A stretch of 58,520 nucleotides of DNA, taken from positions 1-58,520 of the IMG/VR virus record IMGVR_UViG_3300036987_000072, one strand, 5' to 3'. Numbering within the stretch: position 1 is the first letter of the stretch; each line of letters opens with the position of its first letter. A program made the position numbers and the translations under genes. Positions 2,011-58,085 of the stretch are shown in pieces. The stretch is from a virus. Its lineage: Duplodnaviria; Caudoviricetes. Under the pieces are notes generated by a model, which saw only the letters and a program-made list of their open reading frames with translations, did no database searches and was not told the DNA's origin.

Positions 2011-2046
2011 CGGTGGGAAAGTCACCCGATGTCGCGGTGGGAAAGT
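2011..2046. promoter_or_regulatory. Putative integrase arm-type sites, 2x CGGTGGGAAAGT
   Basis: Copies at 2011-2022 and 2035-2046; same 12-mer at 58305-58316 and an inverted partial copy at 58354-58363 near the other att. Confidence 0.65.
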
Positions 2047-3170: not shown

Positions 3171-3424
3171 GGGGCGACGTTGTCCCAAATATCGTCCGGC
3201 TTTTCGGACGCCCGCCCCGCCACATCGGGCAATGCCTCAAAGGCGATGTCAAGCCTAACAACGTCCCATACAACGCGGCCATCAATTCGCTTCGGCCGGG
3301 GCATGCGGCCGTCGGCGACCATTTCGTCGAACTTGGTGGCGCCTACGCCGACGTATTCGGCGGCCTGTTCACGCGACAGGCCGCGCGGGGACATTCCCCT
3401 CGGTAAGACGGACCGCCGAGCCAT
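3167..3424 (-). CDS. Excisionase/AlpA-like HTH protein
   Basis: PRGLSREQAAEYVGVGATKFDEMVADGRMPRPKRIDGRVVWD; immediately upstream of int. Confidence 0.8.
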   Translation of the reverse strand: MARRSVLPRGMSPRGLSREQAAEYVGVGATKFDEMVADGRMPRPKRIDGRVVWDVVRLDIAFEALPDVAGRASEKPDDIWDNVAP

Positions 3425-17841: not shown

Positions 17842-18182
17842 CAGTCTACGTCGACGACATGGCGGCGCCCTATCAGCCCAAGCACCGGCCGGGGCGCACT
17901 TACGTCATGTGCCACATGATCGCCGACACCGACGACGAGCTGCACGCCATGGCGGCCGCGATCGGCGTCGCGCGCCGCTGGCATCAGGGCGACCATTATG
18001 ACATCGCCAAATCGAAGCGCGAGCAAGCCATCAAGCTCGGCGCCGTGCCGCTGCCGATGCGGACGCTCGCCGCCATGGCCATGCTGCGGCGCTGGGGGCA
18101 GCCGATGGGCGAGCCCGCGACGGCGATGCAGCGCATCAGCGAGTATCGAAGTGCACGCGTAAGAACCGAGGAACCGAGATAA
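17838..18182 (+). CDS. DUF4031-family protein
   Basis: VYVDD..MCHMIADTDDELHAMAAAIGVARRWHQGDHYDI. Confidence 0.8.
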   Translation: MTVYVDDMAAPYQPKHRPGRTYVMCHMIADTDDELHAMAAAIGVARRWHQGDHYDIAKSKREQAIKLGAVPLPMRTLAAMAMLRRWGQPMGEPATAMQRISEYRSARVRTEEPR

Positions 18183-18427
18183 TGAGCAACGACAATTCGC
18201 AGGCGCCGCCTATCGAACTGGCGACGACGAAAAGTGAAGACGAGCCAATGCTGCAATTCTTTGCGTTTGACCATCTGCCGCCGCACCTCGCGGCGATCAG
18301 CGGCTCGTTCTGCCAGTTGGCGCACGAGATGTGTGCGCTGTTGCCGCGCAATCCCGAGCGCACGGCCGGGCTGCGCAAGCTGCTCGAGGCGAAAGACTGC
18401 GCCGTGCGGGCCAAGCTGTTCAAGTAA
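18182..18427 (+). CDS. Conserved small phage helical-hairpin protein (Acb2/Tad1-hairpin-like candidate)
   Basis: FFAFDHLPPHL..LAHEMCALLPRNPERTAGLRKLLEAKDCAVRA. Confidence 0.55.
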   Translation: MSNDNSQAPPIELATTKSEDEPMLQFFAFDHLPPHLAAISGSFCQLAHEMCALLPRNPERTAGLRKLLEAKDCAVRAKLFK

Positions 18428-18460
18428 CCGAGCGTAGAACTAAACCGAGGAAAGACGAAA

Positions 18461-18685
18461 ATGCTGAAACGTGACGAGATTGCCAACCCGAACAGCTGCC
18501 TCAACAAGGCAGCCGATGACGAGCCGGTTTTCGTGCTGCGCGGCCGCGACGCGCTGGCGCCGGAGATCGTGCGCGATTGGGCCAACCGCGCCGAGGCAAA
18601 CGGCGCGTCGGCCGACAAGGTCGACGAGGCGCGCGCCCTCGCCGACAAAATGCACGCGTGGCCGGCGCGGCGGATGCCGGATTGA
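18461..18685 (+). CDS. Conserved small phage protein (DEPVFVLRGRD motif)
   Basis: SD GAGGA; recognisable phage motif SCLNKAADDEPVFVLRGRDALAP..WA. Confidence 0.65.
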   Translation: MLKRDEIANPNSCLNKAADDEPVFVLRGRDALAPEIVRDWANRAEANGASADKVDEARALADKMHAWPARRMPD

Positions 18686-18852
18686 TGGAGCCTCAATGGG
18701 CAATAGGGGCGCTGGCGTTTATACTCGCCGGCGCCAACGCCCTTCTCCTCGTCGAGGTTAGGGGGCTCATCCGCCGCGTCGACGCACTCAGTCGCGAGGT
18801 TTGGAAGTTGAAAGCGGCGGGGCAAGTCATCCCGCCGTCCCGCAACGATTGA
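18685..18852 (+). CDS. Small single-TM protein
   Basis: TGATG coupling; WAIGALAFILAGANALLLV. Confidence 0.5.
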   Translation: MEPQWAIGALAFILAGANALLLVEVRGLIRRVDALSREVWKLKAAGQVIPPSRND

Positions 18853-18869
18853 GGCGAGCCGCGCCGAAA

Positions 18870-19280
18870 ATGGAGACCCCAATGGGCAGCAACGTGGTGA
18901 ACCTCAAGCGGGCCGAGAGCCGCGCCGTGCCGGCGCCGGACGTCGACGGTCTGTCGCTCGGAGACATTCGCAAGGTCGAAGTGGCGTTCGAGGATGGGGC
19001 ACCGCAGACGTATCTCATCCACAAGGATGACGTTGAGACATTCATCGAGGCCACGCTCAAGCTGCATTGCGACCCCGGCGTCAATCCAGTCACTAAGGCC
19101 GAGACAACCAAGGTCTGGCAAATCCGCGTCGGGAAGCTGAAGCGGGAAGGCCCATATTGGTGGACGACGCCAGCGCTAGACGGCCGCGTCCCAGGCGCGC
19201 ACATTTTTGATTGCTACGGCACCGAGTGCGTATGGATGAGCAAGGACGCCGAGCGCAGATATGCGGAAAGCGACGACTAG
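18870..19280 (+). CDS. Hypothetical phage protein
   Basis: Operon packing; start 18870 or 18882. Confidence 0.55.
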   Translation: METPMGSNVVNLKRAESRAVPAPDVDGLSLGDIRKVEVAFEDGAPQTYLIHKDDVETFIEATLKLHCDPGVNPVTKAETTKVWQIRVGKLKREGPYWWTTPALDGRVPGAHIFDCYGTECVWMSKDAERRYAESDD

Positions 19281-19289
19281 GGCGAAATC

Positions 19290-19676
19290 ATGCTGACGCA
19301 CCTGGTTCTCGCATGGGTGACGGTCCTCGCCGTGGCGTTGGGCAGCGTCGAGGCCGTCGACGGTGACACGGTGCGGGCGCTGGGCCAGTCCTGGCGCCTG
19401 ACCGGCTTCGACACGCCCGAGACGCGTTACGCCAGGTGCAGCCGCGAGTGGATGCTGGGCGTGGTGGCCAAAAACCGGCTGCAGCGCCTGGTCGACGGCG
19501 CCGGCGTAATCGAGATCCACGCGCGCCGCGGCAAGGACAAATACGGCCGCGGGCTTGGCGCGCTTATGGTCGACGGCGAGGATGCCGCCGACATCATGGT
19601 GCGGGAAGGGCTGGCGCGGCCCTACAGCGGGCGCGGGAAGCGCGGGAGCTGGTGCGGTGGGGGATGGGTGCGGTGA
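19290..19676 (+). CDS. Thermonuclease (SNase-family) with signal sequence
   Basis: AVDGDTV..RLTGFDTPET..DKYGRGLG..MVREGLARPY. Confidence 0.88.
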   Translation: MLTHLVLAWVTVLAVALGSVEAVDGDTVRALGQSWRLTGFDTPETRYARCSREWMLGVVAKNRLQRLVDGAGVIEIHARRGKDKYGRGLGALMVDGEDAADIMVREGLARPYSGRGKRGSWCGGGWVR

Positions 19677-19754
19677 GCACGATCAAGGCTTGGCGCTGCT
19701 GTTCGGCGGGATATGGGGGAAGTGATGGCGGGTTTTCCAATGTGGAAAGTGTGG

Positions 19755-20366
19755 CTAGTCCCTAACGAACAGCCGCCACCGATCCTTATTTGCCTCACGC
19801 CACTCGGGCGTTTTGACTTTGATCCAGTCGGGATTGGGGCCGGACACATAGCGGCTGCCGCGTCGCTTACATACGACGCCTTCGAGGCCGTGCTCGGCGC
19901 AAAGCTCCAGGACCGCCGCGGCGCTATGGAAGGCATGCGAGGTCCGCAGCGTGTCGGTCGCCTCACGCTTGAGCACCCGCCGCACCAGGGCACGGCGCGC
20001 TTCTAGCGGCTCGTTGACCATCGGAACGCCATTGAAGGCGAGAATGTCGAAACAGTAGACGCAGCAGCCGTCGCGTTCGCCGCGCATGAGAGCGTAGAAG
20101 TTCGGCCAGCCTGAGACGTCGGGCGCTACAATCTCGCCGTCGAGGATCAGCGACTTGAACGGCAACGCGGCGACGGCATCAGCGAGCTTGCGGAACCGCC
20201 GTGTGAGGTCGCCACCATTCTTGCCGTAGATCGTCGCCGCGCCGTCGACCAGGTGCATCTGCGCACGGAAGCCATCGTGCTTGAGGTCATACAGCCAGTC
20301 GCGCCCGGTGGGCGGCTCTGAGGCGAGGACCGGTGCGCTGGGCACGATGAAGGGGGAGCGAGGCAC
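19755..20366 (-). CDS. ATP-dependent DNA ligase, adenylation domain only (LigD/LigC-like)
   Basis: LKHDGFR (KxDG), LDGEIV, FDIL, EGVVCK, WIKVK motifs; ORF ends shortly after motif V. Confidence 0.85.
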   Translation of the reverse strand: MPRSPFIVPSAPVLASEPPTGRDWLYDLKHDGFRAQMHLVDGAATIYGKNGGDLTRRFRKLADAVAALPFKSLILDGEIVAPDVSGWPNFYALMRGERDGCCVYCFDILAFNGVPMVNEPLEARRALVRRVLKREATDTLRTSHAFHSAAAVLELCAEHGLEGVVCKRRGSRYVSGPNPDWIKVKTPEWREANKDRWRLFVRD

Positions 20367-20430
20367 GCGCGTTACTTAAGCGCGACGATCGGGTCCAGCA
20401 AGGCGAGAGTCCGCGCAGGCGCCGTCGGGA

Positions 20431-20459
20431 TTGTTCTTCTTCTGTTCTCGGGGTAGAAG
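20431..20459 (+). promoter_or_regulatory. Putative SOS promoter with alphaproteobacterial LexA box GTTC-N7-GTTC
   Basis: GTTC-TTCTTCT-GTTC at 20433-20447 overlapping TTGTTC-17nt-TAGAAG. Confidence 0.65.
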
Positions 20460-20484
20460 CGGGGGCAGAGAGAGAGGCCCAAGC

Positions 20485-20691
20485 ATGCCCGAGGACGATC
20501 ACACATACCGAAAAACGCTGGCCGTGGGCGCTGCCGTGCAGGTCCGCTTCGGCGGGCGTTGGCAGGAGGCCACGATCGTCAACAAGTCGGAGCGGGGCAA
20601 GAGCGAGACCGTGCTCGCGAAAACCGCGGACGGGACGTTCGTGTCGGTCCGCGATCCGTCGCAGTGGAGGCCGTCGCGCTTACCAAAGTAA
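20485..20691 (+). CDS. Small basic beta-barrel-like (Tudor/SH3-like) protein, probably SOS-induced
   Basis: SD GAGAGG; LAVGAAVQVRFGGRWQEATIV; directly downstream of the LexA box. Confidence 0.6.
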   Translation: MPEDDHTYRKTLAVGAAVQVRFGGRWQEATIVNKSERGKSETVLAKTADGTFVSVRDPSQWRPSRLPK

Positions 20692-20769
20692 AAACCCCGG
20701 AGCTGGGGGCACCAGCAACCGGGGGAATTATTCAAAGTCTGAATATTTTTTGCATGTTTTCCGTCGCCG

Positions 20770-21837
20770 TTAGGAGGCGGCGGCGAGGACCTTGCACCGT
20801 CCGGCCTGGGTCCGCGCGGGGATGAGCCGCTGACGCTCCCAATCGCGGCACCAGTCCGACACCGTCTGCTTAGGGCGACCGGACAGTCCGACCAGCGTGT
20901 CCTGCGAGGGGAACGTCCGGCCAAGCGCCAGCTCGAACAGCACGTGCTGCAGGGTTTCCGTCTTACTGAGGCGGCCGCCGGGCGCCGGACGGTCCGGCTT
21001 TGGCGTCGGACCGTTGCGATCGTCCGGACCAAACCACCGCCGATCGACGGACGGTCCGGCCTCGAAGGACGTCTGCGCCGTCTCGGCCGGCGTGGGCAGG
21101 TGCCGGCGCTGACGGTTCGGCCCGAACGCTCGAGCAAAGCACCAGATGGTGCCAAACTCGAAGAACAGCGTCAGCATGTAGGGGAAGGCGAGGCCTGCGC
21201 CGGCCGCCACCTTGCCCTTGTCGTAGCCGAACGCGGCCGCCGACGTGGCGAACTGCTCAGCTGCCGGGTCGACCGGCGTAGGAGGCGCCAGCTGCGCCAG
21301 GCGCGCCTCGACGCCGGCGAGGCTGTCGGCGTAGACGCTCTGCACCGCGCGGGCACCGAGGCATCGTCGATGGTCGGGGCCGAGCTTTTTGCAGACGGCG
21401 TCGGCATCGCTGCGCTTGGCGGCAAAGGCGGCCGTCTCGCTGGCGATCTTGCGCTCGAGGTCGAGACGCTTGCCGACGGCCAGGTCGTGCTCGCCGGCCG
21501 ACATCATCGTTTTCTCGCCCTGGCGGCCGACGCTGGAATAAATCACCAGGCCGGTGCCGACCAGGAACAGCACCGAGAAGCCGGCGAGGCTGCCGAACTG
21601 CCGGCGATGCCAAGCCTGCTCGGCGAGGATGCCGACCAGCAAGGTGCCGGCGACGATGACCAGCGTCTGGTAGTGCTTGAGCGTGAACTGCGCACCGAGC
21701 GCGACGACATCGTAAAACAGGATGGCGAGCGTTCCGGAGAGCAGGATGACGCCGGCGACGAAAGCGACGCCGCGCCAGGAAAAGGCCGTGCGCGCTGTAA
21801 TTGCAGCTGCTCGACCGAGCGTGTTAAGGCTCTGCAT
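20770..21837 (-). CDS. Multi-TM membrane protein with C-terminal winged-HTH
   Basis: SD GAAAGG; three N-terminal hydrophobic helices, coiled region, a further TM, then FPSQDTLVGLSGRPKQTVSDWCRDWE. Confidence 0.7.
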   Translation of the reverse strand: MQSLNTLGRAAAITARTAFSWRGVAFVAGVILLSGTLAILFYDVVALGAQFTLKHYQTLVIVAGTLLVGILAEQAWHRRQFGSLAGFSVLFLVGTGLVIYSSVGRQGEKTMMSAGEHDLAVGKRLDLERKIASETAAFAAKRSDADAVCKKLGPDHRRCLGARAVQSVYADSLAGVEARLAQLAPPTPVDPAAEQFATSAAAFGYDKGKVAAGAGLAFPYMLTLFFEFGTIWCFARAFGPNRQRRHLPTPAETAQTSFEAGPSVDRRWFGPDDRNGPTPKPDRPAPGGRLSKTETLQHVLFELALGRTFPSQDTLVGLSGRPKQTVSDWCRDWERQRLIPARTQAGRCKVLAAAS

Positions 21838-21963
21838 GTGAGTACCTTTCTTTGCGGATTGGGATGCACACCGGCCCGGGAGTGTTTGCGCACTCCCGGG
21901 CCAACTCGTTTCCTGCGTATTGAGCAGGGGATGGGGCACCCTCGAGGATGCCCACACCGCTGC

Positions 21964-22164
21964 TCAGTCGACCTTGGCGGCCGCCTGCTGCGCATCTTTG
22001 AGGAGGCGGAATGTGCCAAGCTCATTGAGGCGCCCGTCGACGTAGTACGGCCGCAGCGCCGTGGGGTGGCCGCAGTGGCGGACGAGCACGCCGGGCAGCT
22101 CGTCGCTCGTCCATTTGTCGTTGCGGCCGGTGGGGCCAGGATGCCCTTTCCAAGTGATGCTCAT
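21964..22164 (-). CDS. Small hypothetical protein
   Basis: In the minus-strand operon, 6 nt from the upstream gene. Confidence 0.6.
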   Translation of the reverse strand: MSITWKGHPGPTGRNDKWTSDELPGVLVRHCGHPTALRPYYVDGRLNELGTFRLLKDAQQAAAKVD

Positions 22165-22170
22165 AACGCC

Positions 22171-22392
22171 CTAGCTCCGGATAGAGACGACGACCGGCCG
22201 ATCGGTCGCGGTGATGTTCGCGGTCGCCTCGATCGGCGTGATGTCCGGCAGCGTGAGATTGAGCGCCACGACGCGGAAACCCTCATCGTGGCCGTGGTTC
22301 TCGACCAGGGCGTCGGCCGCCGTCTGCGCGTCGACGTCGCTCGCCTCGAGGTCGCCGGCGGCGTTGTAGGCTATCCAGAGCATCGCATTCAT
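22171..22392 (-). CDS. Small acidic hypothetical protein
   Basis: SD AAGGGG immediately after the hammerhead. Confidence 0.6.
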   Translation of the reverse strand: MNAMLWIAYNAAGDLEASDVDAQTAADALVENHGHDEGFRVVALNLTLPDITPIEATANITATDRPVVVSIRS

Positions 22393-22409
22393 AGCGTCGT
22401 CCCCTTGTT

Positions 22410-22474
22410 TGGCTCATCAGGCCGGCACTCGCCGGCGACCATCGCGGGGCGCTGGGCCCCGCTAGGTTTCGCCA
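22410..22474 (-). ncRNA. Type II hammerhead ribozyme (copy 1)
   Basis: Minus strand: UGGC GAAA CC UA GCGGGGC CCAGC GCCCCGC GAU GG UC / GCCGGC GAGU GCCGGC CUGAUGA GCCA; complete core, GUC triplet, all three stems paired. Confidence 0.9.
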
Positions 22475-23014
22475 TCACGCTGCGGCCTCAAGCTCGGCCG
22501 TCTTGGCGGCGATCGCCGCCTTGATCCGCTCGACGACGTTCTCGAGGTTAGGCGACTTGCCTTTCGTGTGCACGCGGCTGCGCCAGTCGACGCCGCCACC
22601 AACCTCGCGCCAGGCCGAGGCGCCAAAGTCGGCGCTGTACTTGTGCAGCTCGACAATCCAATCGCCGAACGTGGCCCGCACGCGCCGGTCGACTTCGCCG
22701 GCCTTGTGATGCGCGTGCTGCAGCTCAACGACCGAGAACCGCAGGCCGCCGGCGTCGAACACGTTGCCGGGGTATTCGGCCTTTGGCTTGGCCGTTACGG
22801 CCTTTTCGACGACCTCGAGGGGGACGACGATGCGATCGGCGGCGCCGGCGGCCAGATTGTGCGCGAGATCCAGGCGGCCAGAACAGCCGACCATGATCCA
22901 GGCGCCTTTGTGGTTTTTGCCGAGGACCGCATGCGAGTAGCGCCTCGAGGCGGACGTGCGATTGAGCGTGGTGCCGTCCGGCGCCGTGGCCGTGTGGATG
23001 ATTTTCACCGTCAT
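22475..23014 (-). CDS. Hypothetical protein (179 aa) flanked by two hammerheads
   Basis: Clean ORF whose stop codon abuts hammerhead 1 and whose leader follows hammerhead 2. Confidence 0.7.
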   Translation of the reverse strand: MTVKIIHTATAPDGTTLNRTSASRRYSHAVLGKNHKGAWIMVGCSGRLDLAHNLAAGAADRIVVPLEVVEKAVTAKPKAEYPGNVFDAGGLRFSVVELQHAHHKAGEVDRRVRATFGDWIVELHKYSADFGASAWREVGGGVDWRSRVHTKGKSPNLENVVERIKAAIAAKTAELEAAA

Positions 23015-23033
23015 GTGCTTTTCCCGTGTGCTT

Positions 23034-23097
23034 GGCTCATCAGAGGCGGCATCACCGCCTGACCGTCGCGGGGCTCGAGGCCCCGCTAGGTTTCGCC
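23034..23097 (-). ncRNA. Type II hammerhead ribozyme (copy 2)
   Basis: Minus strand: GGC GAAA CC UA GCGGGGC CUCGA GCCCCGC GAC GG UC / AGGCGG UGAUG CCGCCU CUGAUGA GCC; stem I differs from copy 1 but stays fully paired. Confidence 0.9.
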
Positions 23098-23098
23098 T

Positions 23099-23335
23099 TC
23101 ACGCTGCAACCTTGTCGGCGGTCAGCACCGGCGACATCGAGTAGCGGCCATGGGGGTCGCAGGCCTCGACGCCGTCCCAGATCCGGACGCGACGGGCGCG
23201 AATCTTGCCGTGCGCCGACAGCCAAACCGTCTTTTCGGTGCGCTTGACGACTTCGAATTTGAACACGCAGTCGTAGTCGCAGATCGAGCGGACGGTGTAG
23301 GTGTTGCCGACTTCAAATTTTGCGATGGTGGTCAT
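23099..23335 (-). CDS. Small conserved phage protein, first gene of the hammerhead operon
   Basis: SD GGAG; FEVGNTYTVRSICDYDC..KRTEKTV..GRYSMSPVL. Confidence 0.7.
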   Translation of the reverse strand: MTTIAKFEVGNTYTVRSICDYDCVFKFEVVKRTEKTVWLSAHGKIRARRVRIWDGVEACDPHGRYSMSPVLTADKVAA

Positions 23336-23379
23336 TTGGTTGGCTCCGTGAGTTAAGTGGCTTTGCGATGTCTGGGTTT

Positions 23380-23452
23380 TATTTACCCGAGTAACTTAAA
23401 TAGGTCAAGGGCCAGAGCAGGCCTTGACGCATTTTTTTTACTCGCGTAATTA
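23380..23452. promoter_or_regulatory. Back-to-back sigma70-like promoters, each with a TTAC-N4-GTAA operator
   Basis: Minus: TTGACC(23408-23403)-17-TAAATA; plus: TTGACG(23424-23429)-17-TAATTA; TTACTCGGGTAA (23394-23383) and TTACTCGCGTAA (23438-23449) overlap each -10. Confidence 0.72.
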
Positions 23453-23459
23453 TGTGGCC

Positions 23460-23699
23460 ATGCAGATACACGAGAGCGATGCAGACATGGCCGAACCACC
23501 TCGCCGCCCGCGCGGCCGCCCGTCGACGGGAGTTCGCAAGGCACGTGTGCAGGCATTGCTTGATGTTGAGGACGTCGAGACGATCGAGGCGGCTGCGGCT
23601 ACGCTCGACAAATCGGTCGCCGAGCTGGGCCGCGTGCTGATCAAGGGCGAGATGGCCTGGGCGGACGTGGTCAAGGCGGCAAAGAAGGGGCGGCGGTGA
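23460..23699 (+). CDS. Ribbon-helix-helix (CopG/Arc-like) regulator
   Basis: RPRGRPSTG followed by strand-helix-helix RVQALLDVEDVETIEAAAATLDKSVAELGRVLI; start 23460 or 23487. Confidence 0.65.
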   Translation: MQIHESDADMAEPPRRPRGRPSTGVRKARVQALLDVEDVETIEAAAATLDKSVAELGRVLIKGEMAWADVVKAAKKGRR

Positions 23700-23923
23700 T
23701 GGCGCGGTGCCCGCAGTGTTTGTCGACGTCGGTGGATGCCGTTCCGCAAGCGCTGCCGATGCGAGAATATCGACCCGGTGACGAGCTTGTGCCCGCCCGC
23801 GTATGGTGGGCGTGCGAATGCCTGAATTGCGGCAACGCATGGTCGCAGGCGGGGACGGCGGCGGTTGAGCCGCCGAACATGGTCATAACGAGCGGGCCAT
23901 GGGTGATGCGTGATGGGTGCTGA
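23696..23923 (+). CDS. Zn-ribbon small protein
   Basis: CPQC...CLNCGNAW; GTGA coupling. Confidence 0.55.
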
Positions 23924-23925
23924 CG

Positions 23926-24201
23926 ATGGCTGCGAATGAACGCGAGGCGATCGAGGGGCGACTGCGCACGATGCTGGACGTCGGGCTCGACAAAGGCAAC
24001 GAAGGCGAATTGGTGACGCTGATCGAGCGCATCGCTGTTGCGGCCGTCGCCGAACTCGTCGACCCGCTTTACGCGCTGTTATCGGCGCGCGCCGAGGCGC
24101 TGGCCGGCTGTACCGAGGGCTCGCCGGAGGAGGCCGAGCTGGCGGCGATCGCCACCGCGCTCGACCGCTACGAGGCGCTGCGGCCGCCGGCCGGCCAATA
24201 A
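23926..24201 (+). CDS. Hypothetical protein
   Basis: Operon packing; [20 protein letters not shown]. Confidence 0.55.
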
Positions 24202-24215
24202 AATAGGAGCACACG

Positions 24216-24413
24216 ATGACGACCGCACACCATGACAACGCCGACACGCGAAGACTTAAGGGCAAGGTGGTGAGCCTGGTCGAGCACGAGCCCGGCCACG
24301 TGACCGTGCGTTTCAATGATGGCTCGCTTATCCGCGTGACGGCAGAGGAGCGGGACGTCAACGGCGCAAAGGTTATGGGGCTGGCCGTTCAGACTATCGC
24401 CGTTAGCGAGTGA
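24216..24413 (+). CDS. Small hypothetical protein
   Basis: SD AGGAG. Confidence 0.55.
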   Translation: MTTAHHDNADTRRLKGKVVSLVEHEPGHVTVRFNDGSLIRVTAEERDVNGAKVMGLAVQTIAVSE

Positions 24414-24503
24414 TGCGCGAATGACACGGGCGCATCATTTTGAAAAAGTTGTTTACAGATAGGGCCGAATCGGGTGATTCGACCTCTAGTCTCAACGAGA
24501 CGT

Positions 24504-24534
24504 ACGCCCGCAGCCATCCAGCCGCGGGCGTTTT
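24504..24534 (+). terminator. Putative intrinsic terminator at the start of the late leader
   Basis: ACGCCCGC-N12-GCGGGCGT followed by TTT. Confidence 0.45.
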
Positions 24535-25047
24535 GCGTTTCTGGCGGCACGCGGGTGAAGCAGCCAACTGCGGCGACGACCACCGAACGCGGCCACAAAA
24601 TCATAATGCCGGGGTGTATTCCCCGGTGGTCGGTGCGGAGATGCACGGGGGCGGCTGAGCCGTTTCTGACCGATCTTAAAACAACGCCCCCTAGCCATTC
24701 ACGAATGCCACGCGCCCCACGGTGCTGCTGGGATGAACCCTCGGCGGCAGGTATCTAACCGATGGATCAGGCGGCTCGGCCGGTGGCGCAGCCGGCACGC
24801 CATGCCGTTTACGCCTCTGCTTGGCGGCATGGCACCCATACTTGAGAGCGCTGAAGACCCGCACCGGCTGCCGCGTCGTCCACCAGTATGGCAGCCGGTG
24901 AGCAGTGAGGCGATGACGGACCTAATTGCGCGACCGCACCGCGGCCCGTGCAGCAGCTGATCTCCGGCCCGATCCTGGCAGGCACCCACAAACGCGATTG
25001 ATTTTCGCACCAGGCCAACGCCAGCGAAGAAGGCCGGACCGATCACG

Positions 25048-25311
25048 ATGCAAAAGCTGATGCTCAACGGCGAGCACGCCTGGGTTATTCGGTCGACGTG
25101 CCCTGACCGGGCGGAAATGTTCTTCGAGAGCCACACGACCTGGAACGTCAAGCCGAGCGAGGCGACGATCTTCCGGTCGTTCGACGCCGCCGAGCGCGAA
25201 ATGGTGCGGGCGGCTTCGCTGGGGTTCAAGCTGCCGGGTGAGGTTCACGAGGTCGTGCCGCTGCTAGGAGCGCTCGCAACATTCGCCGCCAAGGCACGCA
25301 GGAAGGGCTGA
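25048..25311 (+). CDS. Hypothetical protein
   Basis: Directly upstream of the gpZ-like gene. Confidence 0.5.
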   Translation: MQKLMLNGEHAWVIRSTCPDRAEMFFESHTTWNVKPSEATIFRSFDAAEREMVRAASLGFKLPGEVHEVVPLLGALATFAAKARRKG

Positions 25312-25314
25312 GCG

Positions 25315-25872
25315 ATGGCCGCGATAACGATGCACTGGTCCGGCGACGGCATCCCCAAGATGCACATCGCCATGGATAGGCTGTCGGGCAACCAGAAGTA
25401 CACCGCCCTGCGCCGGGCGCTCAACCATACCGGCGACAAGGTGCACACCATCGTGCTGCGCACGCTGTCAAAGCAGATCGGTGCGCCCCAGAACGTGATC
25501 CGGCGCTACGGCAAGATCAGCAAGCAGCGCGCCACCGGGGCAGGCCTTACGTACACCATACGGGCTAGTGGTGGGCCGATACCGTTGAAACATTTTCGCG
25601 CGTATCAGACCGCTAAGGGCGTGTCGGCCGCGCCTTGGAACAATCGCAAACTCTATCGCTCGGCGTTCATCATCGGCGGCGGCGGCAACGGCCATGCGTT
25701 CTGGCGCGTGGGCAGTGCGCGCTTGCCGATCAAGGGCATCACCGGCCCGAACGTGCCGAAGGAAATGGTGAAGGATGCGAGCGCTGCCGCGTTCCATTCG
25801 GTAACGTCGGCCGAACTGCCGCGGCGTGTGGCACACGAGATCAAAGTCATCACGAACGGCGTCGTGTCCTAA
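25315..25872 (+). CDS. Minor tail/neck protein, lambda gpZ-like
   Basis: ALRRALNHT..PIPLKHF..KGVSA..SAFI..RLPIK.ITGPNVP. Confidence 0.65.
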   Translation: MAAITMHWSGDGIPKMHIAMDRLSGNQKYTALRRALNHTGDKVHTIVLRTLSKQIGAPQNVIRRYGKISKQRATGAGLTYTIRASGGPIPLKHFRAYQTAKGVSAAPWNNRKLYRSAFIIGGGGNGHAFWRVGSARLPIKGITGPNVPKEMVKDASAAAFHSVTSAELPRRVAHEIKVITNGVVS

Positions 25873-25888
25873 CGAGGGGGCAGCTCGC

Positions 25889-25950
25889 GGGTCCCTTCCA
25901 GGCCCCGCCCCCACCTGCGGGGCGGCGGCCGCCCGGGGTTCGCCAATTTT
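25889..25950 (+). other. Lambda-like cos site (cosQ-like 25889-25895, cosN-like 25920-25931)
   Basis: GGGTCCC TTCC..TGCG GGGCGGCGGCCG CCCGGGGTTCGC parallels lambda GGGTCCT TTCC..TACG GGGCGGCGACCT CGCGGGTTTTCGC; just upstream of terS. Confidence 0.75.
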
Positions 25951-26020
25951 TCAGGTCCAAAAATCTGCATTTCCGTTTCCGGTTTTGCAGTGTTTACGGG
26001 CCTTTTCGAGGGGTCGATAA

Positions 26021-26566
26021 ATGGCGCGCAAGCCGACCAAGAAACCGCGCGTCAAAACTCCGCAAGAAAATGACGGTCCGGAATTGGTGTCGGCCGCCAG
26101 GTTAGCCAAGTGTTTCGGCCTTACAGAGCGCCGGGTGCGGCAGCTCGCCGACGAGGGCGTCGTGGTCAAAAGCGGCAGGGCGCTTTACGACCTCGCCAAG
26201 TCGACGCAGGCCATGTTCCGACACATCCGCGAAACGGAAATCGCTAAGCGTGAAAGCGAGGCGTCGTCGCGTTCGCAGTTCGAAGCCGAGCGAGCGCGCA
26301 AGCTCAAGCTCGAAAACGACGAGAAAGAAAACATCTTAATCGAGACGCCGACGGCGATCGCCGCCATCGACTTCATCGTGGGAAGGCTTCGCACCGGGCT
26401 CGCCGGCGTGCCGGCCAGAGTTTCAGAGGACGTCGCCACGCGCCGGCGAGTTGAGAATGCCATCGACGACGTTCTCCTCGAAGTCAGCGACAACTTTGAA
26501 AAAGCTGCAACCCTTCTGGGTGAGGGGCGCGATCCTTTCGAAGCCGACGAAGCGGCAGCCGCCTGA
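26021..26566 (+). CDS. Terminase small subunit (Nu1-like)
   Basis: wHTH SAARLAKCFGLTERRVRQLADEG..YDL, coiled coil; position. Confidence 0.85.
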   Translation: MARKPTKKPRVKTPQENDGPELVSAARLAKCFGLTERRVRQLADEGVVVKSGRALYDLAKSTQAMFRHIRETEIAKRESEASSRSQFEAERARKLKLENDEKENILIETPTAIAAIDFIVGRLRTGLAGVPARVSEDVATRRRVENAIDDVLLEVSDNFEKAATLLGEGRDPFEADEAAAA

Positions 26567-28553
26567 CGAGTGGGCGAAAGACAACCGGATCTATCCGCCA
26601 TCGTCGGACCGACCAGGTCCTCGCAATGTGCAGCTTACGCCGTACATCGTCGACTACGTTCGGGCCTTCGAAAACCACCTTTACGACACGGTGGCGCTGG
26701 TCTGCGGATCGCAGATGGGCAAGTCGGAGGCCGATCTCGACGTCATCGGCCAAACGCTCGACCAGCGGCCGGCGCCGATCATTTACGTCGCGCCGAGTGA
26801 GACGTTCCTGCGCGAGGAGATTGAGCCGCGTCTGACGTCGCTGATCGAGCAATCGGCGAGCCTCAAGGCGAAGGCGAGCGGCGGCAAGAAGTCGACAAAG
26901 TACAAAAAGATCGTCGCCGGCGTGGCGGTCCGGCTGTTGTGGGCAGGATCTGCGTCGCAGCTGTCGGGCACAACCGCCAAGCTGGCGCTCGTCGACGAGC
27001 TGGACCGCATGGTCAGCAACGTGCAGGGCGACGGCGACCCGCTAACGCTGGTCGATGCTCGAGGCTTTGCGCACAAGGACAGAAAGCGCGGCGTCACGTC
27101 GACGCCAAAATGCGGTAATGCCGACATCATCAGGGACGAGGTTTCGGGCCTCGAATTCTGGAAGCGCATGCCGCCGGAGGACATCGAAAGCCCGATCTGG
27201 CGCGTCTGGCAGCGCGGCACCATGCACCATTTCGCCTGGCCCTGCCCTGAGTGCGCGACCTACTTTGTGCCGCGCTTCAAGCAGCTGCGCATCCCTGAGA
27301 ATGCGACGTCGGCCGAAGCAAAGCGCCACGCGCACGTCGAATGCCCGCACTGCGGCGGCGTGATCGAGGAACACCACAAGCCGGACCTCAACGCTCGCGG
27401 GCGCTACGTGGCGCCAGGTCAGGAAATCTCGCCCGACGGCATCGTCACCGGCGACCCACCGGACACGTCGACCATCAGCTTCTGGGTGTCGGGGATCTGT
27501 TCGCCGTTCGTCACGATCGGCGAGCGCGCCGCGGCCTACATCGAGGCTAAGGAATCGGGCAGCCAAGAAAAGCTGCAGGCGGTAATAAATACCGGCTTCG
27601 GTGAGCTGTGGGCGCCAGGCGCCGGCGACGTTCCCGAGTGGACCGAGGTCGCTGCGCTTCGCAGGCCATACAAAAAGCTCGAGATTCCGGTCGGCGTTCG
27701 GGTTCTCACGCTTGCGGCCGACGTTCAAAAGCGGCGCATCGTCTACACGATCCGCGGCTGGGGCGCTCGCGGCAGTTCCTGGCTGATCGACTTCGGCGAG
27801 CTGCACGGCCACACGACCGAGGACGACGTCTGGAACGACTTCGCCGAGCTGCTGCACCGGCCGATCGAAGATCGCGCCATCCGCATGGCTTTCATCGACT
27901 CCGGTTTCCGCCCCGGCAAGCCGGAGAACGTGCCAGTCAATAAGGTCTATGATTTCTGTCGGCGGTTCCCGCGCCTGGTGTACCCGACCAAGGGTCGCGC
28001 GACGCAGGACAAGCCGCTCATTCCGAGCAAGATCGAGGTCACCGCGCGCGGTTCGGCGCGAAAATACGGCCTCGACTTGATCTGGCTCGACACGGACCAT
28101 TTCAAGAGCTGGGTTCACGAGCGCATCCGCTGGGAGCCTAATCAACCGGGCGCATGGCTGCTGCCGCAGGACACCACCGACGACTACTGCAAGCAGATCG
28201 TCGCCGAGGCGCGCGTAAAAAAGCCGAACGGTCAACCGCAATGGGTCGCGCGCAGCCGCGAGAACCATTACCTCGACTGTGAAGCGATGCAGGCGGCCGT
28301 CGGGCACATGCTCAGCGTGCACCTGATGCGACCGGACGACACCGAAAGCGCGTCACCGCCACCACCGACACCGGCAGAACCGGCGCCGGCGGCCGGCAAC
28401 GTCGCGCAAGCTGCCCAACGTGCTCGAGCCGAGAAGCCACAAACGCCGTCGAAGCCGATCGTCGCGCCACGCGCACTAGCGTCGAAAGTCGACGCCGCAG
28501 CGGCGCGCAAGCAACGCATCCAGGATCTCGCGGTGCGGATGAGGACACGATGA
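26451..28553 (+). CDS. Terminase large subunit (lambda gpA family); start uncertain
   Basis: TPY, GSQMGKSE (Walker A), DELDR (Walker B), TSTP, CPEC/CPHC, DVQ, IDSG, NHYLDC. Confidence 0.93.
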   Translation: MRMPSTTFSSKSATTLKKLQPFWVRGAILSKPTKRQPPDEWAKDNRIYPPSSDRPGPRNVQLTPYIVDYVRAFENHLYDTVALVCGSQMGKSEADLDVIGQTLDQRPAPIIYVAPSETFLREEIEPRLTSLIEQSASLKAKASGGKKSTKYKKIVAGVAVRLLWAGSASQLSGTTAKLALVDELDRMVSNVQGDGDPLTLVDARGFAHKDRKRGVTSTPKCGNADIIRDEVSGLEFWKRMPPEDIESPIWRVWQRGTMHHFAWPCPECATYFVPRFKQLRIPENATSAEAKRHAHVECPHCGGVIEEHHKPDLNARGRYVAPGQEISPDGIVTGDPPDTSTISFWVSGICSPFVTIGERAAAYIEAKESGSQEKLQAVINTGFGELWAPGAGDVPEWTEVAALRRPYKKLEIPVGVRVLTLAADVQKRRIVYTIRGWGARGSSWLIDFGELHGHTTEDDVWNDFAELLHRPIEDRAIRMAFIDSGFRPGKPENVPVNKVYDFCRRFPRLVYPTKGRATQDKPLIPSKIEVTARGSARKYGLDLIWLDTDHFKSWVHERIRWEPNQPGAWLLPQDTTDDYCKQIVAEARVKKPNGQPQWVARSRENHYLDCEAMQAAVGHMLSVHLMRPDDTESASPPPPTPAEPAPAAGNVAQAAQRARAEKPQTPSKPIVAPRALASKVDAAAARKQRIQDLAVRMRTR

Positions 28554-28822
28554 CCGAGCCAACACCTTGCCTCTTGGTGCTGCGCAAGCTCAAGGAAGCG
28601 ATCGACGCGCGCATGACCGGCACGGGCGTGCAGAGCGTCGGCCACAAGGGCCGAACGCTCGAGTACGCAACCATGAACGTCGGCGAGATGATGAAATATT
28701 ATATGCAGCTCTGGCGCCAGTGCCCCGCGGCGCAGGCCGAGCTGCCGGAGCTGCAGCCGCTTGACGGGCCGACCGGCACGCGCGGGCGGCCGGCTATCTT
28801 TGTTGGCAGCGGGCGGGTCTGA
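28550..28822 (+). CDS. Head-tail joining protein, gpW-like
   Basis: MTGTGVQSVGHKGRTLEY; between terL and portal. Confidence 0.7.
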   Translation: MTEPTPCLLVLRKLKEAIDARMTGTGVQSVGHKGRTLEYATMNVGEMMKYYMQLWRQCPAAQAELPELQPLDGPTGTRGRPAIFVGSGRV

Positions 28823-30432
28823 TGGCGAGAACGCGCAAGGTCAGAGCCGCCGCGCCGAGCGTCCAGAAGCCGCGCGCAAGCATGGGTGAAACGGCTTACA
28901 CGGGCGCCAGCCGCCGCGACCAAAACATCGCCATGTGGCAGCCGGGGCTGCGGTCGGCCGACGCTGAAATCATGCGCGACGCCGCGATGGTTCGTGCCCG
29001 AGCCCGCGACCTCGAGCGCAACCACCCCTACGCCAAGCAGGCGGTGCGGATCTCGCGTCTTGGCGTCGTGGGCAAGCAGCTGCGCTATTCCTGCCGGCCC
29101 GACTATCGTTTTCTCGGCATCGACTTCGAGGAGGCGGTCCGCTGGGGGCAGGAATTCGAGCGCGTGTGGGAGAGCTACGCACACGGCCCGTCGTGCTTCA
29201 TCGACGCCGGCCGGCGCATGAGCTTCACGCAGATGATGGGGCTGGCGCACGATCGCGATTTTGTGGACGGCGAAAGCTTCACGACGGCCGAGTGGGCGCC
29301 GTCGCGCAAATGGCGCACGTGTTTTCAGGCAGTCGACGTCGATCGCCTCTCCAATCCGCACGGCGCACCGGAAACGACCTATTTAAAGGGTGGCGTCGCG
29401 CTGAACGATCTGTCGGAGCCGGTTGGCTATTGGGTGCGCGACAGCCACCCGGCCGATGTCGGCTTTCAGGGCGCGCGCGTGTTGAGCTGGTCGTTCGTCC
29501 GACGCGAAACCGATTGGGGCCGATCGGTCGCGCTGCATACGTTTGACGTCAGCCGGCCAGGGCAGACGCGTGGCATGTCTGAATTCGCCTCGGTCATCCG
29601 CGACATGAAAATGGGCCGCGAATACACCGAGACGGCGCTCGCTGCGGCCATTCTGCAGGCGTCCTACGCCGCGGTGATGACTTCGCAGCAGAATTATAAG
29701 GACGCCCTCGAGATCATCGCGTCGGGCCCACCGGACTCGGCGCCCAGCATCGCCGACGTCGCGCTCGAGAACCTCGAGGCGGCCGTCGCCTACCACGACG
29801 AGGCAAAGATCCGCTTCAACGGCGCCAAGGTGCCGATCCTATGGCCAGGCGAGAAGCTCGAACTGCTCACGCCGGGCCAGAGCGCCAACAGCCTCGCCGA
29901 TTTCCAGAGCCACGCGACTAAGTCTTACGCGGCCGGCACCGGCACCGATCCGATCTCGGTGAGCCAGGACTATTCCGACGTGAATTACTCAAGCGCCAAG
30001 ATGGCCGTCGCATCGAACTGGCGGACCTACGAGGCGCGTCGCGAGCGCCTGGTCGGTGGTCTCGCCATGCCGATGGTCGCGGCTTTCCTCGAGGAGATCG
30101 TATTTTCGGGGGCGATGCCGCTGCCGAAAGGCGTGTCGGAGCTAGATTTTTACGATGCACGCGACGCGCTGATCAAAGGCAAGTTTATCACCGCCGGCGC
30201 GCCCATGCTCGACCCGGTCAAGGAGCGCCAGGCGCAGAAGCTTGGCGTCGAAATCGGCGTCGACACCCTGCAGGACATCTGCGCCGAGGAAGGCAAGGAT
30301 TACCTCGACGTGCTCGACCAGCTGCAGCGTGAAGCAATGGAGCGCGAGCAGCGCGGCCTGCCACCGCCGTCGCCGCTGATGCTTCCGCCGGCACCGGCCG
30401 ACGCTGGTGAGAAAGAGGGCGCTCCGCAATGA
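28822..30432 (+). CDS. Portal protein, lambda family
   Basis: RARARDLERNHPYA, RPGQTRG, SQDYSDVNYSSAK, LDPVKE. Confidence 0.93.
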   Translation: MARTRKVRAAAPSVQKPRASMGETAYTGASRRDQNIAMWQPGLRSADAEIMRDAAMVRARARDLERNHPYAKQAVRISRLGVVGKQLRYSCRPDYRFLGIDFEEAVRWGQEFERVWESYAHGPSCFIDAGRRMSFTQMMGLAHDRDFVDGESFTTAEWAPSRKWRTCFQAVDVDRLSNPHGAPETTYLKGGVALNDLSEPVGYWVRDSHPADVGFQGARVLSWSFVRRETDWGRSVALHTFDVSRPGQTRGMSEFASVIRDMKMGREYTETALAAAILQASYAAVMTSQQNYKDALEIIASGPPDSAPSIADVALENLEAAVAYHDEAKIRFNGAKVPILWPGEKLELLTPGQSANSLADFQSHATKSYAAGTGTDPISVSQDYSDVNYSSAKMAVASNWRTYEARRERLVGGLAMPMVAAFLEEIVFSGAMPLPKGVSELDFYDARDALIKGKFITAGAPMLDPVKERQAQKLGVEIGVDTLQDICAEEGKDYLDVLDQLQREAMEREQRGLPPPSPLMLPPAPADAGEKEGAPQ

Positions 30433-57894: not shown

Positions 57895-58031
57895 GCCGGC
57901 GCGAGCTGCAGGCCTGGGGCATCCGCATCAGCCTAATCGTGGTCATCGCGTTCTGCTTTTTCACGACGACCGGCAAAGTCATCGACCGGCTGTCGAGCCT
58001 GCCGTCGTCGACGGCGACCGCCAGCCCTTAA
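57891..58031 (+). CDS. Small single-TM protein
   Basis: GTGA coupling; ISLIVVIAFCFF. Confidence 0.45.
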   Translation: MSRRELQAWGIRISLIVVIAFCFFTTTGKVIDRLSSLPSSTATASP

Positions 58032-58085
58032 CGAGATCCTCGAGCGCGCGCGCAAGCCGCCCCCGTCTTCGTCGCCTCGAGTGTA

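What the first reader, a model, noticed from the sequence alone, without database searches (positions are those of the whole stretch)
22410..23097. Two hammerhead ribozymes precisely bracket one gene: a self-excising, possibly circularising mRNA cassette in a prophage operon
Seen: two intergenic minus-strand elements each carry the full hammerhead core (GAAA, GUC, CUGAUGA) in type II topology. Stem I differs in sequence between copies (GCCGGC/GCCGGC vs AGGCGG/CCGCCU) yet pairs perfectly in both, which is compensatory evidence. Each starts within 1 nt of the upstream stop codon and ends just before the next ribosome-binding site. Established: hammerheads cut after NUH, leave 5'-OH and 2',3'-cyclic phosphate, can religate, and are known near phage genes without a clear function. 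Inference: cuts at 23061/23060 and 22437/22436 would release a 624-nt RNA holding the whole 179-aa ORF plus leader. Joining its ends would rebuild a complete chimeric hammerhead, so a circular or 5'-OH-stabilised monocistronic mRNA is possible. The operon would process itself into three pieces without host RNases.
Basis: partly seen in the sequence, partly recalled or inferred. Interest (0 to 1): 0.92.

Follow-up and report, generated by a model that had tools for sequence, protein, structure and literature searches.

The report
Two hammerhead ribozymes flank phage gene
Two genuine self-cutting hammerhead RNAs sit on either side of one small gene in a temperate phage, an arrangement described for prophages in 2011 that most likely chops one long message into single-gene pieces; there is no evidence that the piece becomes a circle.

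Summary
Minus-strand 23097..23034 and 22473..22411 are complete type II hammerheads: full core, three helices, and the hammerhead fold as the minimum-energy structure. They fill the gaps between a 78-aa, a 179-aa and a 73-aa ORF. Rfam's Hammerhead_II matches both full length but below its cut-off (21.8 and 22.9 bits against 37). A model built from 64 phage relatives scores them 68.5 and 61.1 bits, with nothing else real in the window.

Perreault et al. 2011 (PMC3088659) described hammerheads flanking single genes in prophages, proposed processing into single-gene mRNAs, and looked for circular or spliced products without finding them. This scan has noted such arrays many times on other DNA. 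Circularisation has no support here: no RNA run holds the stretch, and the ends would be held by only 3-4 base pairs.

Two things are added. A related phage (L035) keeps both hammerheads but carries a different gene between them. In 43 multi-copy loci, homology breakpoints cluster at hammerhead edges.

Verdict: an ordinary new member of a known kind.

The parts
23034..23097 (-). Hammerhead A (type II): GGC-GAAA-stem III hairpin-GUC|stem I hairpin-CUGAUGA-GCC. Predicted cut between 23061 and 23060.
   Evidence: Sequence; Rfam RF02276 21.8 bits, full length; R1 68.5 bits; MFE is the hammerhead fold.
22411..22473 (-). Hammerhead B (type II), same architecture. A fourth stem II pair U22474-A22410 is possible. 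Predicted cut between 22437 and 22436.
   Evidence: Sequence; Rfam RF02276 22.9 bits; R1 61.1 bits; MFE is the hammerhead fold.
22437..23060 (-). Predicted 624-nt cleavage product: 5'-OH end, stem I of A, CUGAUGAGCC, leader with Shine-Dalgarno, 179-aa ORF, GGCGAAA, stem III of B, GUC with 2',3'-cyclic phosphate.
   Evidence: Inferred from the two cut sites. Fold: the 3' stem III hairpin is kept; the 5' stem I region can alternatively pair long-range with product positions 540-556.
22475..23014 (-). 179-aa ORF (P0001) between the hammerheads; function unknown.
   Evidence: ORF list; GC3 0.85; no Pfam family and only a marginal PHROG hit; 5 homologs, all hypothetical.
23099..23335 (-). 78-aa ORF upstream, first gene of the leftward operon; its TGA lies 1 nt before hammerhead A.
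   Evidence: conserved in L035 within an HSP of 80.7% nucleotide identity.
22171..22392 (-). 73-aa ORF downstream of hammerhead B.
   Evidence: conserved in L035 within an HSP of 98.4% identity that also holds hammerhead B.
20770..22164 (-). Rest of the same-strand gene run (66-aa ORF 21964..22164, 395-aa ORF 20770..21957); no hammerheads in it; a terminator-like hairpin at 20710..20694.
   Evidence: no Pfam or PHROG family for the 395-aa protein.
23336..23450 (.). Intergenic region ahead of the 78-aa gene; presumed promoter/operator of the leftward operon (inferred only).
   Evidence: Non-coding gap. The only promoter-like match is on the + strand at 23424..23453. L035 has an AT-rich palindromic stretch at the same place.

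Best explanation
These are two cis-acting type II hammerhead ribozymes in the intergenic spacers of a leftward accessory operon of a lambda-like temperate phage. The phage carries an integrase, a gpA-type terminase, a lambda-family portal and a tRNA gene at its end.

When the operon is transcribed, each ribozyme folds and cuts after its GUC. The transcript splits into the 78-aa message, a 624-nt message for the 179-aa protein, and the distal message (73-aa gene onward).

Because the topology is type II, each upstream piece ends flush in the long G+C-rich stem III hairpin with a 2',3'-cyclic phosphate. Each downstream piece begins with a 5'-OH directly at the stem I hairpin, followed about 30 nt later by its own Shine-Dalgarno. 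After cutting, only 3-4 base pairs of stem II hold the pieces together, so they separate.

The likely effect is that neighbouring genes are uncoupled in stability and translation, as with an insulator. This also lets unrelated genes be dropped between the ribozymes and still be expressed.

Shown here: the ribozyme sequences and folds, their positions, family-wide covariation, and co-orientation. Inferred: cleavage in vivo, end protection, and the effect on expression.
For: All core nucleotides and the three helices are present in both copies. The MFE is the hammerhead fold. Both match Rfam Hammerhead_II full length and score 68.5 and 61.1 bits with R1. A core-only pattern finds 2 matches against 0.19 expected.

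Family evidence: a strict pattern found 74 viral loci. In 64 non-redundant sequences all 6 stem I pairs covary. Among 189 distinct hits, core position 7 varies as expected for hammerheads (U 154, C 20, A 11, G 2; 2 without the motif).

Arrangement: R1 gave 229 hits in 75 sources. 43 of the 75 have 2-12 copies, and within every source all copies are on one strand.

Position: of 206 non-redundant hits, 172 have an upstream open frame of at least 40 codons ending nearby, and in 107 of those 172 the stop lies within -4..+5 nt of stem II. The window's two copies are at +1.

The genes lie on the same strand with high GC3.

Literature: Perreault 2011 reports such clusters cleaving in vitro and, for one, in E. 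coli. D. vulgaris type II hammerheads cleave in vivo, including two in close proximity (coordinates as printed).
Against: No cleavage assay and no RNA data exist for this phage.

Both copies fall below Rfam's gathering score and are not listed in a whole-window E<=1 search.

Neither copy has the loop I/3'-tail pseudoknot: the best complements are 3 and 2 bp, no better than shuffled tails. Perreault 2011 found this pseudoknot critical for fast cleavage at low Mg in the ribozymes tested, so cleavage here could be slow.

In the relative L035 the copy corresponding to A has GAUC instead of GGUC, which gives a C.A mismatch at the base of stem III. Its MFE is not the hammerhead fold. Selection on that copy may therefore be relaxed.

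In the fold of the whole 624-nt product the stem I region prefers a long-range pairing, so the 5' hairpin cap is not assured.

The expression or stability benefit is inference only.
Confidence: 0.72

Rival explanations
1. The excised 624-nt RNA is ligated into a circular mRNA, either by the reverse hammerhead reaction on the rebuilt chimeric ribozyme or by a host RtcB-type ligase. Alternatively, the two outer pieces are joined, 'splicing' the gene out.
For: The geometry is right. Both copies share GGC/GCC and the core, so the product's two ends can form a complete hammerhead, and hammerhead products carry the ends that RtcB joins. Eukaryotic retrozymes flanked by hammerheads are circularised this way, mainly by the ligase: more than 80% with RtcB against about 3% self-ligation in vitro (PMC7229834, passages read).
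Against: Perreault 2011 looked for circular and spliced products from clustered prophage hammerheads and was 'unable to detect either'. The ends would be held only by 3-4 bp across 540 nt, and the pair probability of that stem in a thermodynamic fold is 0.001 for both the linear and circular forms. No tertiary pseudoknot is present. No ligase of the right chemistry was seen in the operon; the nearby 203-aa protein is an ATP-dependent DNA-ligase domain, lies beyond a terminator-like hairpin and an opposite-strand gene, and needs 3'-OH/5'-P ends.
Confidence: 0.07
2. Besides or instead of an RNA role, the roughly 65-80-nt hammerhead units act as shared linker sequences. Phage genomes recombine at them, so genes between them behave as exchangeable cassettes. 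The pair here marks the borders of a swapped-in gene.
For: L035 is collinear with the window, and homology stops at the 3' edge of hammerhead A (23034) and resumes 8 nt before stem II of hammerhead B (22481). The window has the 179-aa ORF between them; L035 has an unrelated ORF of about 38 aa. The two flanks have different histories (80.7% and 98.4% identity). The two window copies share a 19-nt identical 5' half plus GCAGCGTGA upstream, but have unrelated stem I. Internal blastn HSP endpoints lie within 12 nt of a hammerhead edge in 278 of 446 cases (39.6 expected if uniform) among 11 related array loci, and in 124 of 336 cases (32.6 expected) among the other 32 multi-copy loci. 0 of 14 loci with distant homologs of the 179-aa protein have a hammerhead, so the ribozymes do not travel with this gene family.
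Against: In these arrays nearly every gene boundary holds a hammerhead, so 'junctions at hammerheads' cannot be separated from ordinary phage mosaicism at gene boundaries; the null model used was uniform position. Ordered pairs recount the same events and the loci are related. All loci were chosen for having a hammerhead. A conserved island next to a non-homologous gene ends an HSP there whatever the cause.
Confidence: 0.3
3. The two elements are inactive relics or chance look-alikes. Alternatively, they act only as structured RNA (stabilising hairpins or an attenuator) without cutting.
For: Sub-threshold Rfam scores; no pseudoknot; a weakened copy in L035.
Against: Every invariant core position is intact in both copies. 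Stem I is completely different between the copies yet fully paired. Copy B and its flanks are 98.4% conserved in L035. The family shows strong covariation and strict co-orientation. No U-tract follows the hairpins, and the terminator scan lists nothing there.
Confidence: 0.06

Closest known systems
Clustered type II hammerhead ribozymes flanking single genes or short gene blocks in prophages (Perreault et al. 2011, PLoS Comput Biol, PMC3088659; Rfam RF02276)
   Same: Type II topology, intergenic position, co-orientation with the genes, a single gene of no fixed identity between two ribozymes, and a prophage or temperate-phage setting. The proposed role (cutting a polycistronic RNA into single-gene mRNAs) and the circular/spliced alternative are both already stated there.
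   Different: These two copies have a long stem III (a 7-bp inner helix behind a conserved UA/GA-N frame) and a 4-5-nt loop I with no pseudoknot to the 3' tail, so they score under Rfam's cut-off. The host phage is a 65% G+C lambda-like phage from environmental metagenomes.
Desulfovibrio vulgaris type II hammerheads loc 2 and loc 3 (cyPhyRNA-seq, RNA Biol 2021, PMC8782182)
   Same: Two type II hammerheads in close proximity near phage-like genes; there they were shown to cleave in vivo and during in vitro transcription.
   Different: No experimental data exist for the present pair. Sequence relatedness to those copies was not tested here.
Retrozymes and viroid-like circular RNAs with hammerheads (Cervera & de la Pena 2020, PMC7229834)
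   Same: A unit bounded by two hammerhead cuts, whose ends carry 5'-OH and 2',3'-cyclic phosphate and can rebuild a ribozyme.
   Different: Those are non-coding eukaryotic repeats or retroelements with type I/III ribozymes, and their circles have been observed. Here the unit is a protein-coding phage gene with type II ribozymes, no circle has been observed, and the only search for circles in prophage clusters (Perreault 2011) was negative.
Synthetic ribozyme insulators such as RiboJ
   Same: A hammerhead placed ahead of a ribosome-binding site removes the upstream RNA context and leaves a 5' hairpin.
   Different: RiboJ is an engineered part. This comparison concerns mechanism only.

Membership tests
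Hammerhead ribozyme, type II (Rfam RF02276) | Conserved core: C3 U4 G5 A6 N7 G8 A9, G12 A13 A14, A15.1-U16.1, and cleavage triplet NUH | tested here: met
   CUGAUGA, GAAA and GUC are present in both copies at the right places; the G10.1-C11.1 pair is present (GCC/GGC).
Hammerhead ribozyme, type II (Rfam RF02276) | Three helices around the core, with stems I and III closed by loops and stem II open (type II permutation) | tested here: met
   The MFE and centroid structures of both elements are exactly this junction. Stem II has 3 bp in A and 4 bp in B.
Hammerhead ribozyme, type II (Rfam RF02276) | Helices supported by covariation among relatives | tested here: met
   All 6 stem I pairs show compensatory changes in 64 sequences. 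There are 17 distinct inner stem III helices among 29 sequences with the same frame. The stem II and outer stem III pairs were fixed by the search pattern, so they say nothing.
Hammerhead ribozyme, type II (Rfam RF02276) | Score at or above Rfam's gathering threshold (37 bits) | tested here: not met
   22.9 and 21.8 bits, with the full model length matched. The deficit comes from the long stem III insert and the short loop I. This is a curation threshold, not a biochemical feature.
Hammerhead ribozyme, type II (Rfam RF02276) | Loop I/3'-tail pseudoknot of 4 bp or more (present in a majority of type II; not obligatory) | tested here: not met
   The best complements are 3 bp (A) and 2 bp (B), no better than shuffled tails. 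33 of the 64 relatives have 4 bp or more.
Hammerhead ribozyme, type II (Rfam RF02276) | Site-specific self-cleavage | not testable with these tools
   No RNA run holds the stretch; a bench assay is needed.
Clustered prophage hammerheads (Perreault 2011) | Two or more co-oriented hammerheads flanking a gene or short gene block in a phage or prophage | tested here: met
   Two copies on the minus strand, 624 nt between cut sites, one ORF between them. Phage context: integrase, terminase, portal. The record is a virus record.
Ribozyme-derived circular RNA (retrozyme/viroid-like) | Detectable covalently closed RNA of unit length | not testable with these tools
   No RNA data. The thermodynamic fold gives no support for end-joining geometry.
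Ribozyme-derived circular RNA (retrozyme/viroid-like) | Non-coding repeat unit, tandem or LTR-bounded | tested here: not met
   The unit is a single-copy protein-coding gene. Only the roughly 65-nt ribozymes repeat.

The most novel reading that the evidence does not exclude
Hammerhead units are portable adaptors of phage gene cassettes. The same ~65-80-nt element (last codons and stop, ribozyme, Shine-Dalgarno) gives any gene dropped behind it an autonomous, end-capped message. Because it is the only sequence shared by otherwise unrelated cassettes, it also serves as the homology at which phages exchange those cassettes. This would be an RNA-level counterpart of integron attC sites or of the 'linker' sequences proposed for lambdoid mosaicism. 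The swap of the 179-aa gene for a ~38-aa gene between the same two ribozymes in L035, and the 4-7-fold excess of homology breakpoints at hammerhead edges, are what such a system would leave behind.
Probability: 0.3. Interest if true: 0.6.

Novelty: new member of a known kind. Interest (0 to 1): 0.25.

Why it matters
The biological purpose of the many bacterial and phage hammerheads is still open; the 2019 review PMC6765202 (passage read) says more work is needed to define it. This pair adds one clean, minimal example: one gene and two ribozymes in a temperate phage. It could serve as a simple test case for three questions: whether ribozyme cutting changes the stability or translation of the flanked gene, whether any circle forms, and whether the ribozymes mark exchange points. 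It does not change the picture by itself. The useful by-product is the comparative result that gene content between conserved hammerheads turns over and that mosaic junctions pile up at their edges. If that holds against a proper null model, it would link a ribozyme to genome modularity.

Tried and rejected
Rfam at gathering thresholds found only two tRNAs. A relaxed whole-window search (E<=1) found no twister, pistol, hatchet, twister-sister or HDV-like ribozyme, and did not list the hammerheads at that search size.

No near match to GenBank phages was found for 18000..28000.

RNA evidence: no RNA holder was listed. Laying DNA contigs of X1-X4 showed only that X2 carries the window type and X4 the L035 type. 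There were no joints, and this says nothing about expression or circles.

The 179-aa protein has no Pfam family, only a marginal PHROG hit, and no viral relative by peptide patterns. It has 5 hypothetical homologs.

I considered that the ribozymes might travel with this gene family. This was rejected: 0 of 14 homolog loci hold a hammerhead at E<=1.

I considered a link between the nearby ATP-dependent DNA-ligase-domain protein (19755..20366) and RNA circularisation. This was rejected on end chemistry and because it lies beyond a terminator-like hairpin and an opposite-strand gene.

I looked for a third hammerhead after the 73-aa gene, as in L035. None exists in the window with filters off.

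I looked for a pseudoknot or another obvious tertiary contact for the short loop I. None was found.

Literature searches for hammerheads as mosaic or cassette junctions in phages and for bacterial hammerhead circles with RtcB returned nothing on point beyond Perreault 2011. Supplementary files were not seen, including Perreault's figures S1-S3 on the tandem arrangements, and they may bear on the circular-product claim.
Full report
WHAT IS THERE. The window is a complete 58,520-bp virus record with 65% G+C. It carries a tyrosine integrase (2022..3188, minus strand), a gpA-type large terminase (26451..28553), a lambda-family portal (28822..30432) and a tRNA gene at its right end. It is therefore a lambda-like temperate phage or prophage.

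Between the rightward early genes and the rightward packaging genes lies a short leftward gene run. It holds a 78-aa ORF (23335..23099), a 179-aa ORF (23014..22475), a 73-aa ORF (22392..22171), a 66-aa ORF and a 395-aa ORF. All have GC3 of 0.82-0.91, and none has a Pfam family.

THE TWO ELEMENTS. The spacers after the first and second ORFs are each filled almost completely by one element. Read 5' to 3' on the minus strand, each has: GGC, GAAA, a long hairpin, GUC, a second hairpin, CUGAUGA, GCC. This is the hammerhead core in the type II permutation, with stems I and III capped and stem II open.

Every invariant core position is present, including the G10.1-C11.1 pair. Folded alone, each gives exactly the three-way junction as both MFE and centroid structure (-32.8 and -35.7 kcal/mol; z -2.8 and -2.9).

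The predicted cuts lie between 23061 and 23060 and between 22437 and 22436, 624 nt apart. The upstream TGA codons end 1 nt before stem II. The next ATGs lie 19 and 18 nt after stem II, each behind a GGGA-type ribosome-binding site.

IS IT MORE THAN CHANCE. A sequence-only core pattern with no pairing required matches these two places and nothing else in the window. Shuffles give 0.19 matches on average, and 1 of 100 shuffles gave 2 or more.

Rfam's Hammerhead_II model aligns both from end to end, but at 22.9 and 21.8 bits, below its 37-bit cut-off. In a whole-window search at E<=1 they are not listed. By Rfam alone they would therefore be missed. The alignment shows why: stem III holds 24 nt where the model expects about 13, and loop I is very short.

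I then scanned IMG/VR with a strict pattern taken from the two copies and obtained 74 loci. In the 64 non-redundant sequences, RNAalifold recovers the hammerhead junction. All six stem I pairs show compensatory changes; for example, one pair is UA 26, CG 21, GC 14. The stem II and outer stem III pairs were fixed by my pattern and carry no information.

A covariance model built from this alignment (R1) scores the window's copies 68.5 and 61.1 bits. With filters off, the next best place in the window scores 14.2 bits and has a broken core. There are exactly two hammerheads here, and no other ribozyme class.

THE FAMILY AND ITS HABITS. Searching the 74 loci plus the window with R1 gave 229 matches at E<=0.05. 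43 of the 75 sources hold two or more copies, up to 12 (L052), 11 (L041) and 10 (L016). In every source all copies lie on one strand.

Among the 189 distinct hit sequences, core position 7 varies (U 154, C 20, A 11, G 2; 2 without the motif). This is the one core position known to be free.

Of 206 non-redundant hits, 172 have an upstream open frame of at least 40 codons ending within -30..+12 nt. In 107 of those 172 the stop codon lies within -4..+5 nt of the first base of stem II. The tight abutment seen in the window is therefore a property of the family.

These loci were chosen for having a hammerhead, and many are related to each other. The counts describe the family and are not independent events.

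WHAT IS SPECIAL ABOUT THESE TWO COPIES. First, they lack the loop I/3'-tail pseudoknot. Perreault et al. found it in most type II hammerheads and showed it to be needed for fast cleavage at 0.5 mM Mg in the ribozymes they tested (passages read). Here the best complements are 3 and 2 bp, no better than shuffled tails, whereas 33 of the 64 relatives have 4 bp or more.

Second, stem III has a conserved frame: GAAAC-Y, then U-A, an A.G mismatch, a 6-9-bp helix, then GA, a bulged base, and RG-UH. This frame is shared by 29 of the 189 distinct hits, with 17 different inner helices. I do not know of a description of this frame and did not search for one specifically.

THE RELATIVE L035. One IMG/VR contig is collinear with the window. 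L035 3705-4374 matches window 23034-23702 at 80.7% identity; this block holds hammerhead A, the 78-aa gene and the upstream region. L035 3261-3575 matches window 22167-22481 at 98.4%; this block holds the 73-aa gene and hammerhead B.

Between the 3' edge of hammerhead A and a point 8 nt before stem II of hammerhead B there is no homology. The window has the 179-aa ORF with its leader there, while L035 has an unrelated ORF of about 38 codons. The ribozymes are kept and the gene between them is exchanged.

L035 also has a third hammerhead after the 73-aa gene, which the window lacks. Its copy of A reads GAUC for GGUC, which mismatches the base of stem III, and its MFE is no longer the hammerhead fold. 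DNA contigs of run X4 carry the L035 type and those of X2 the window type; these may not be independent of the two records.

The two window copies share an identical 19-nt 5' half and also the nine bases GCAGCGTGA before it, yet have unrelated stem I sequences.

MOSAIC JUNCTIONS. Following this lead, I compared multi-copy loci pairwise with blastn. I asked where internal HSP endpoints fall inside the array regions.

In 11 related array loci, 278 of 446 endpoints lie within 12 nt of a hammerhead edge, against 39.6 expected for uniform placement (examples). In the other 32 multi-copy loci the figures are 124 of 336 against 32.6 expected.

This is a real pattern, but the null model is weak. Nearly every gene boundary in these arrays holds a hammerhead, phage mosaic junctions favour gene boundaries in any case, and ordered pairs recount the same events.

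THE GENE BETWEEN THE RIBOZYMES. The 179-aa protein has five homologs among 5.8 billion clusters, all hypothetical; one is from a Loktanella genome. Pattern scans found 10 metagenome and 4 genome loci with distant relatives, the latter from Thalassovita, Loktanella, Tritonibacter and an alphaproteobacterial MAG. None of these 14 loci has a hammerhead at E<=1. The ribozymes do not belong to this gene. This fits the statement in Perreault 2011 that the flanked genes 'are not constant'.

HOW IT MOST LIKELY WORKS. Shown: sequence, fold, position, strand and family behaviour. Inferred: that the leftward transcript is cut at both GUC sites.

Because the topology is type II, the two products of each cut are joined only by the 3-4-bp stem II, so they should part at once. 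The upstream product ends one base past the closing pair of a G+C-rich stem III hairpin and carries a 2',3'-cyclic phosphate. The downstream product begins with a 5'-OH at the first pair of stem I.

From general knowledge of bacterial mRNA decay (recalled, not read here), 3' hairpins block 3' exonucleases, and a base-paired 5' end without a monophosphate is a poor entry site for RNase E. Each gene would thus get its own capped message, uncoupled from its neighbours. This is also how synthetic ribozyme insulators are thought to act (recalled).

One caution: in a fold of the whole 624-nt product, the stem I region prefers a 16-bp long-range pairing with product positions 540-556, while the 3' hairpin persists. 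Such long folds are unreliable, but the 5' cap is not assured.

THE CIRCLE. Nothing further supports a circle.

The thermodynamic model gives the needed stem II pairs a probability of 0.001 in both the linear and the circular molecule. There is no tertiary clamp. No RNA data exist.

The authors who first described such clusters wrote that spliced or circular products were conceivable but that they 'were unable to detect either'. Where hammerhead-bounded units do circularise, in retrozymes, a protein ligase does most of the work: more than 80% with RtcB against about 3% self-ligation in vitro. I put the circle at about 7%.

COMPARISON WITH WHAT IS KNOWN. The arrangement matches Perreault et al. 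[quoted passage not shown] Cleavage was shown in vitro for three tandem arrangements and in E. coli for one.

In D. vulgaris, three type II hammerheads, two of them in close proximity, cleave in vivo. A 2019 review still lists the purpose as undefined.

This scan has already recorded many phage hammerhead arrays on other DNA: 206 notes hold the search words. The follow-ups shown reached the same conclusion.

VERDICT. The claim of novelty does not hold. This is a new, small and slightly atypical member (no pseudoknot, long stem III, below Rfam's cut-off) of a known kind.

The most interesting thing not excluded is that hammerhead units serve as the exchange points of phage gene cassettes. I give that about 0.3.

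Noticed in passing
L052:2556-10578 (+), L041:3718-12339 (-), L016:6922-13918 (-), L069:1598-4401 (-): Uncultured phage contigs carry 8-12 co-oriented type II hammerheads within 3-9 kb, roughly one per gene boundary. These are far denser than the window's pair.
   Followed up: partly
L004:5043-5186 (-), L030:3778-3920 (-), L062:3903-4045 (-), L050:266-408 (+), L041:12198-12339 (-): Two hammerheads lie directly back to back with no base between the two model matches, so there is no gene between them. The purpose is unknown.
   Followed up: no
window 23091-23061 and 22470-22437 (-); 29 of 189 distinct family hits: There is a conserved stem III frame: GAAAC-Y, then U-A, an A.G mismatch, a 6-9-bp covarying helix, GA, one bulged base, and RG-UH. 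It is shared by phages of very different G+C content. It could be a protein or tertiary-contact site. I did not check whether it has been described.
   Followed up: partly
L035:3691-3770 (-): The relative's copy of hammerhead A has GAUC instead of GGUC (a C.A mismatch at positions 15.2/16.2), and its MFE is not the hammerhead fold. It may be a weakened or decaying ribozyme.
   Followed up: partly
L035:3138-3218 (-) versus window about 22165: L035 has a third hammerhead after the 73-aa gene, with stem II GGCC/GGCC. Homology with the window ends exactly at the stop of that gene, and the window has no ribozyme there.
   Followed up: partly
window 23059-23044 and about 22521-22505 (-): The stem I region of hammerhead A is complementary over about 16 bp to a palindromic stretch near the 3' end of the 179-aa ORF (product positions 2-17 with 540-556 in the MFE of the 624-nt product). 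It could be chance in G+C-rich RNA, or a competing structure.
   Followed up: no
window 57984-58117 (+): There is a sub-threshold, full-length match to Rfam radC RNA (31.4 bits against 40; E 0.03) near the tRNA at the right end.
   Followed up: no
window 19755-20366 (-): A 203-aa protein consists of little more than an ATP-dependent DNA ligase adenylation domain (PF01068, 3.2e-26). This is unusually short for a ligase.
   Followed up: no
window 23101-23093 and 22477-22469 (-); L035:3575-3567 (-): The bases GCGTGA before stem II are conserved along with the ribozyme, even where the ORF stops earlier (TAG in L035). The repeated unit therefore starts a few bases upstream of the ribozyme and supplies the stop codon.
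   Followed up: partly
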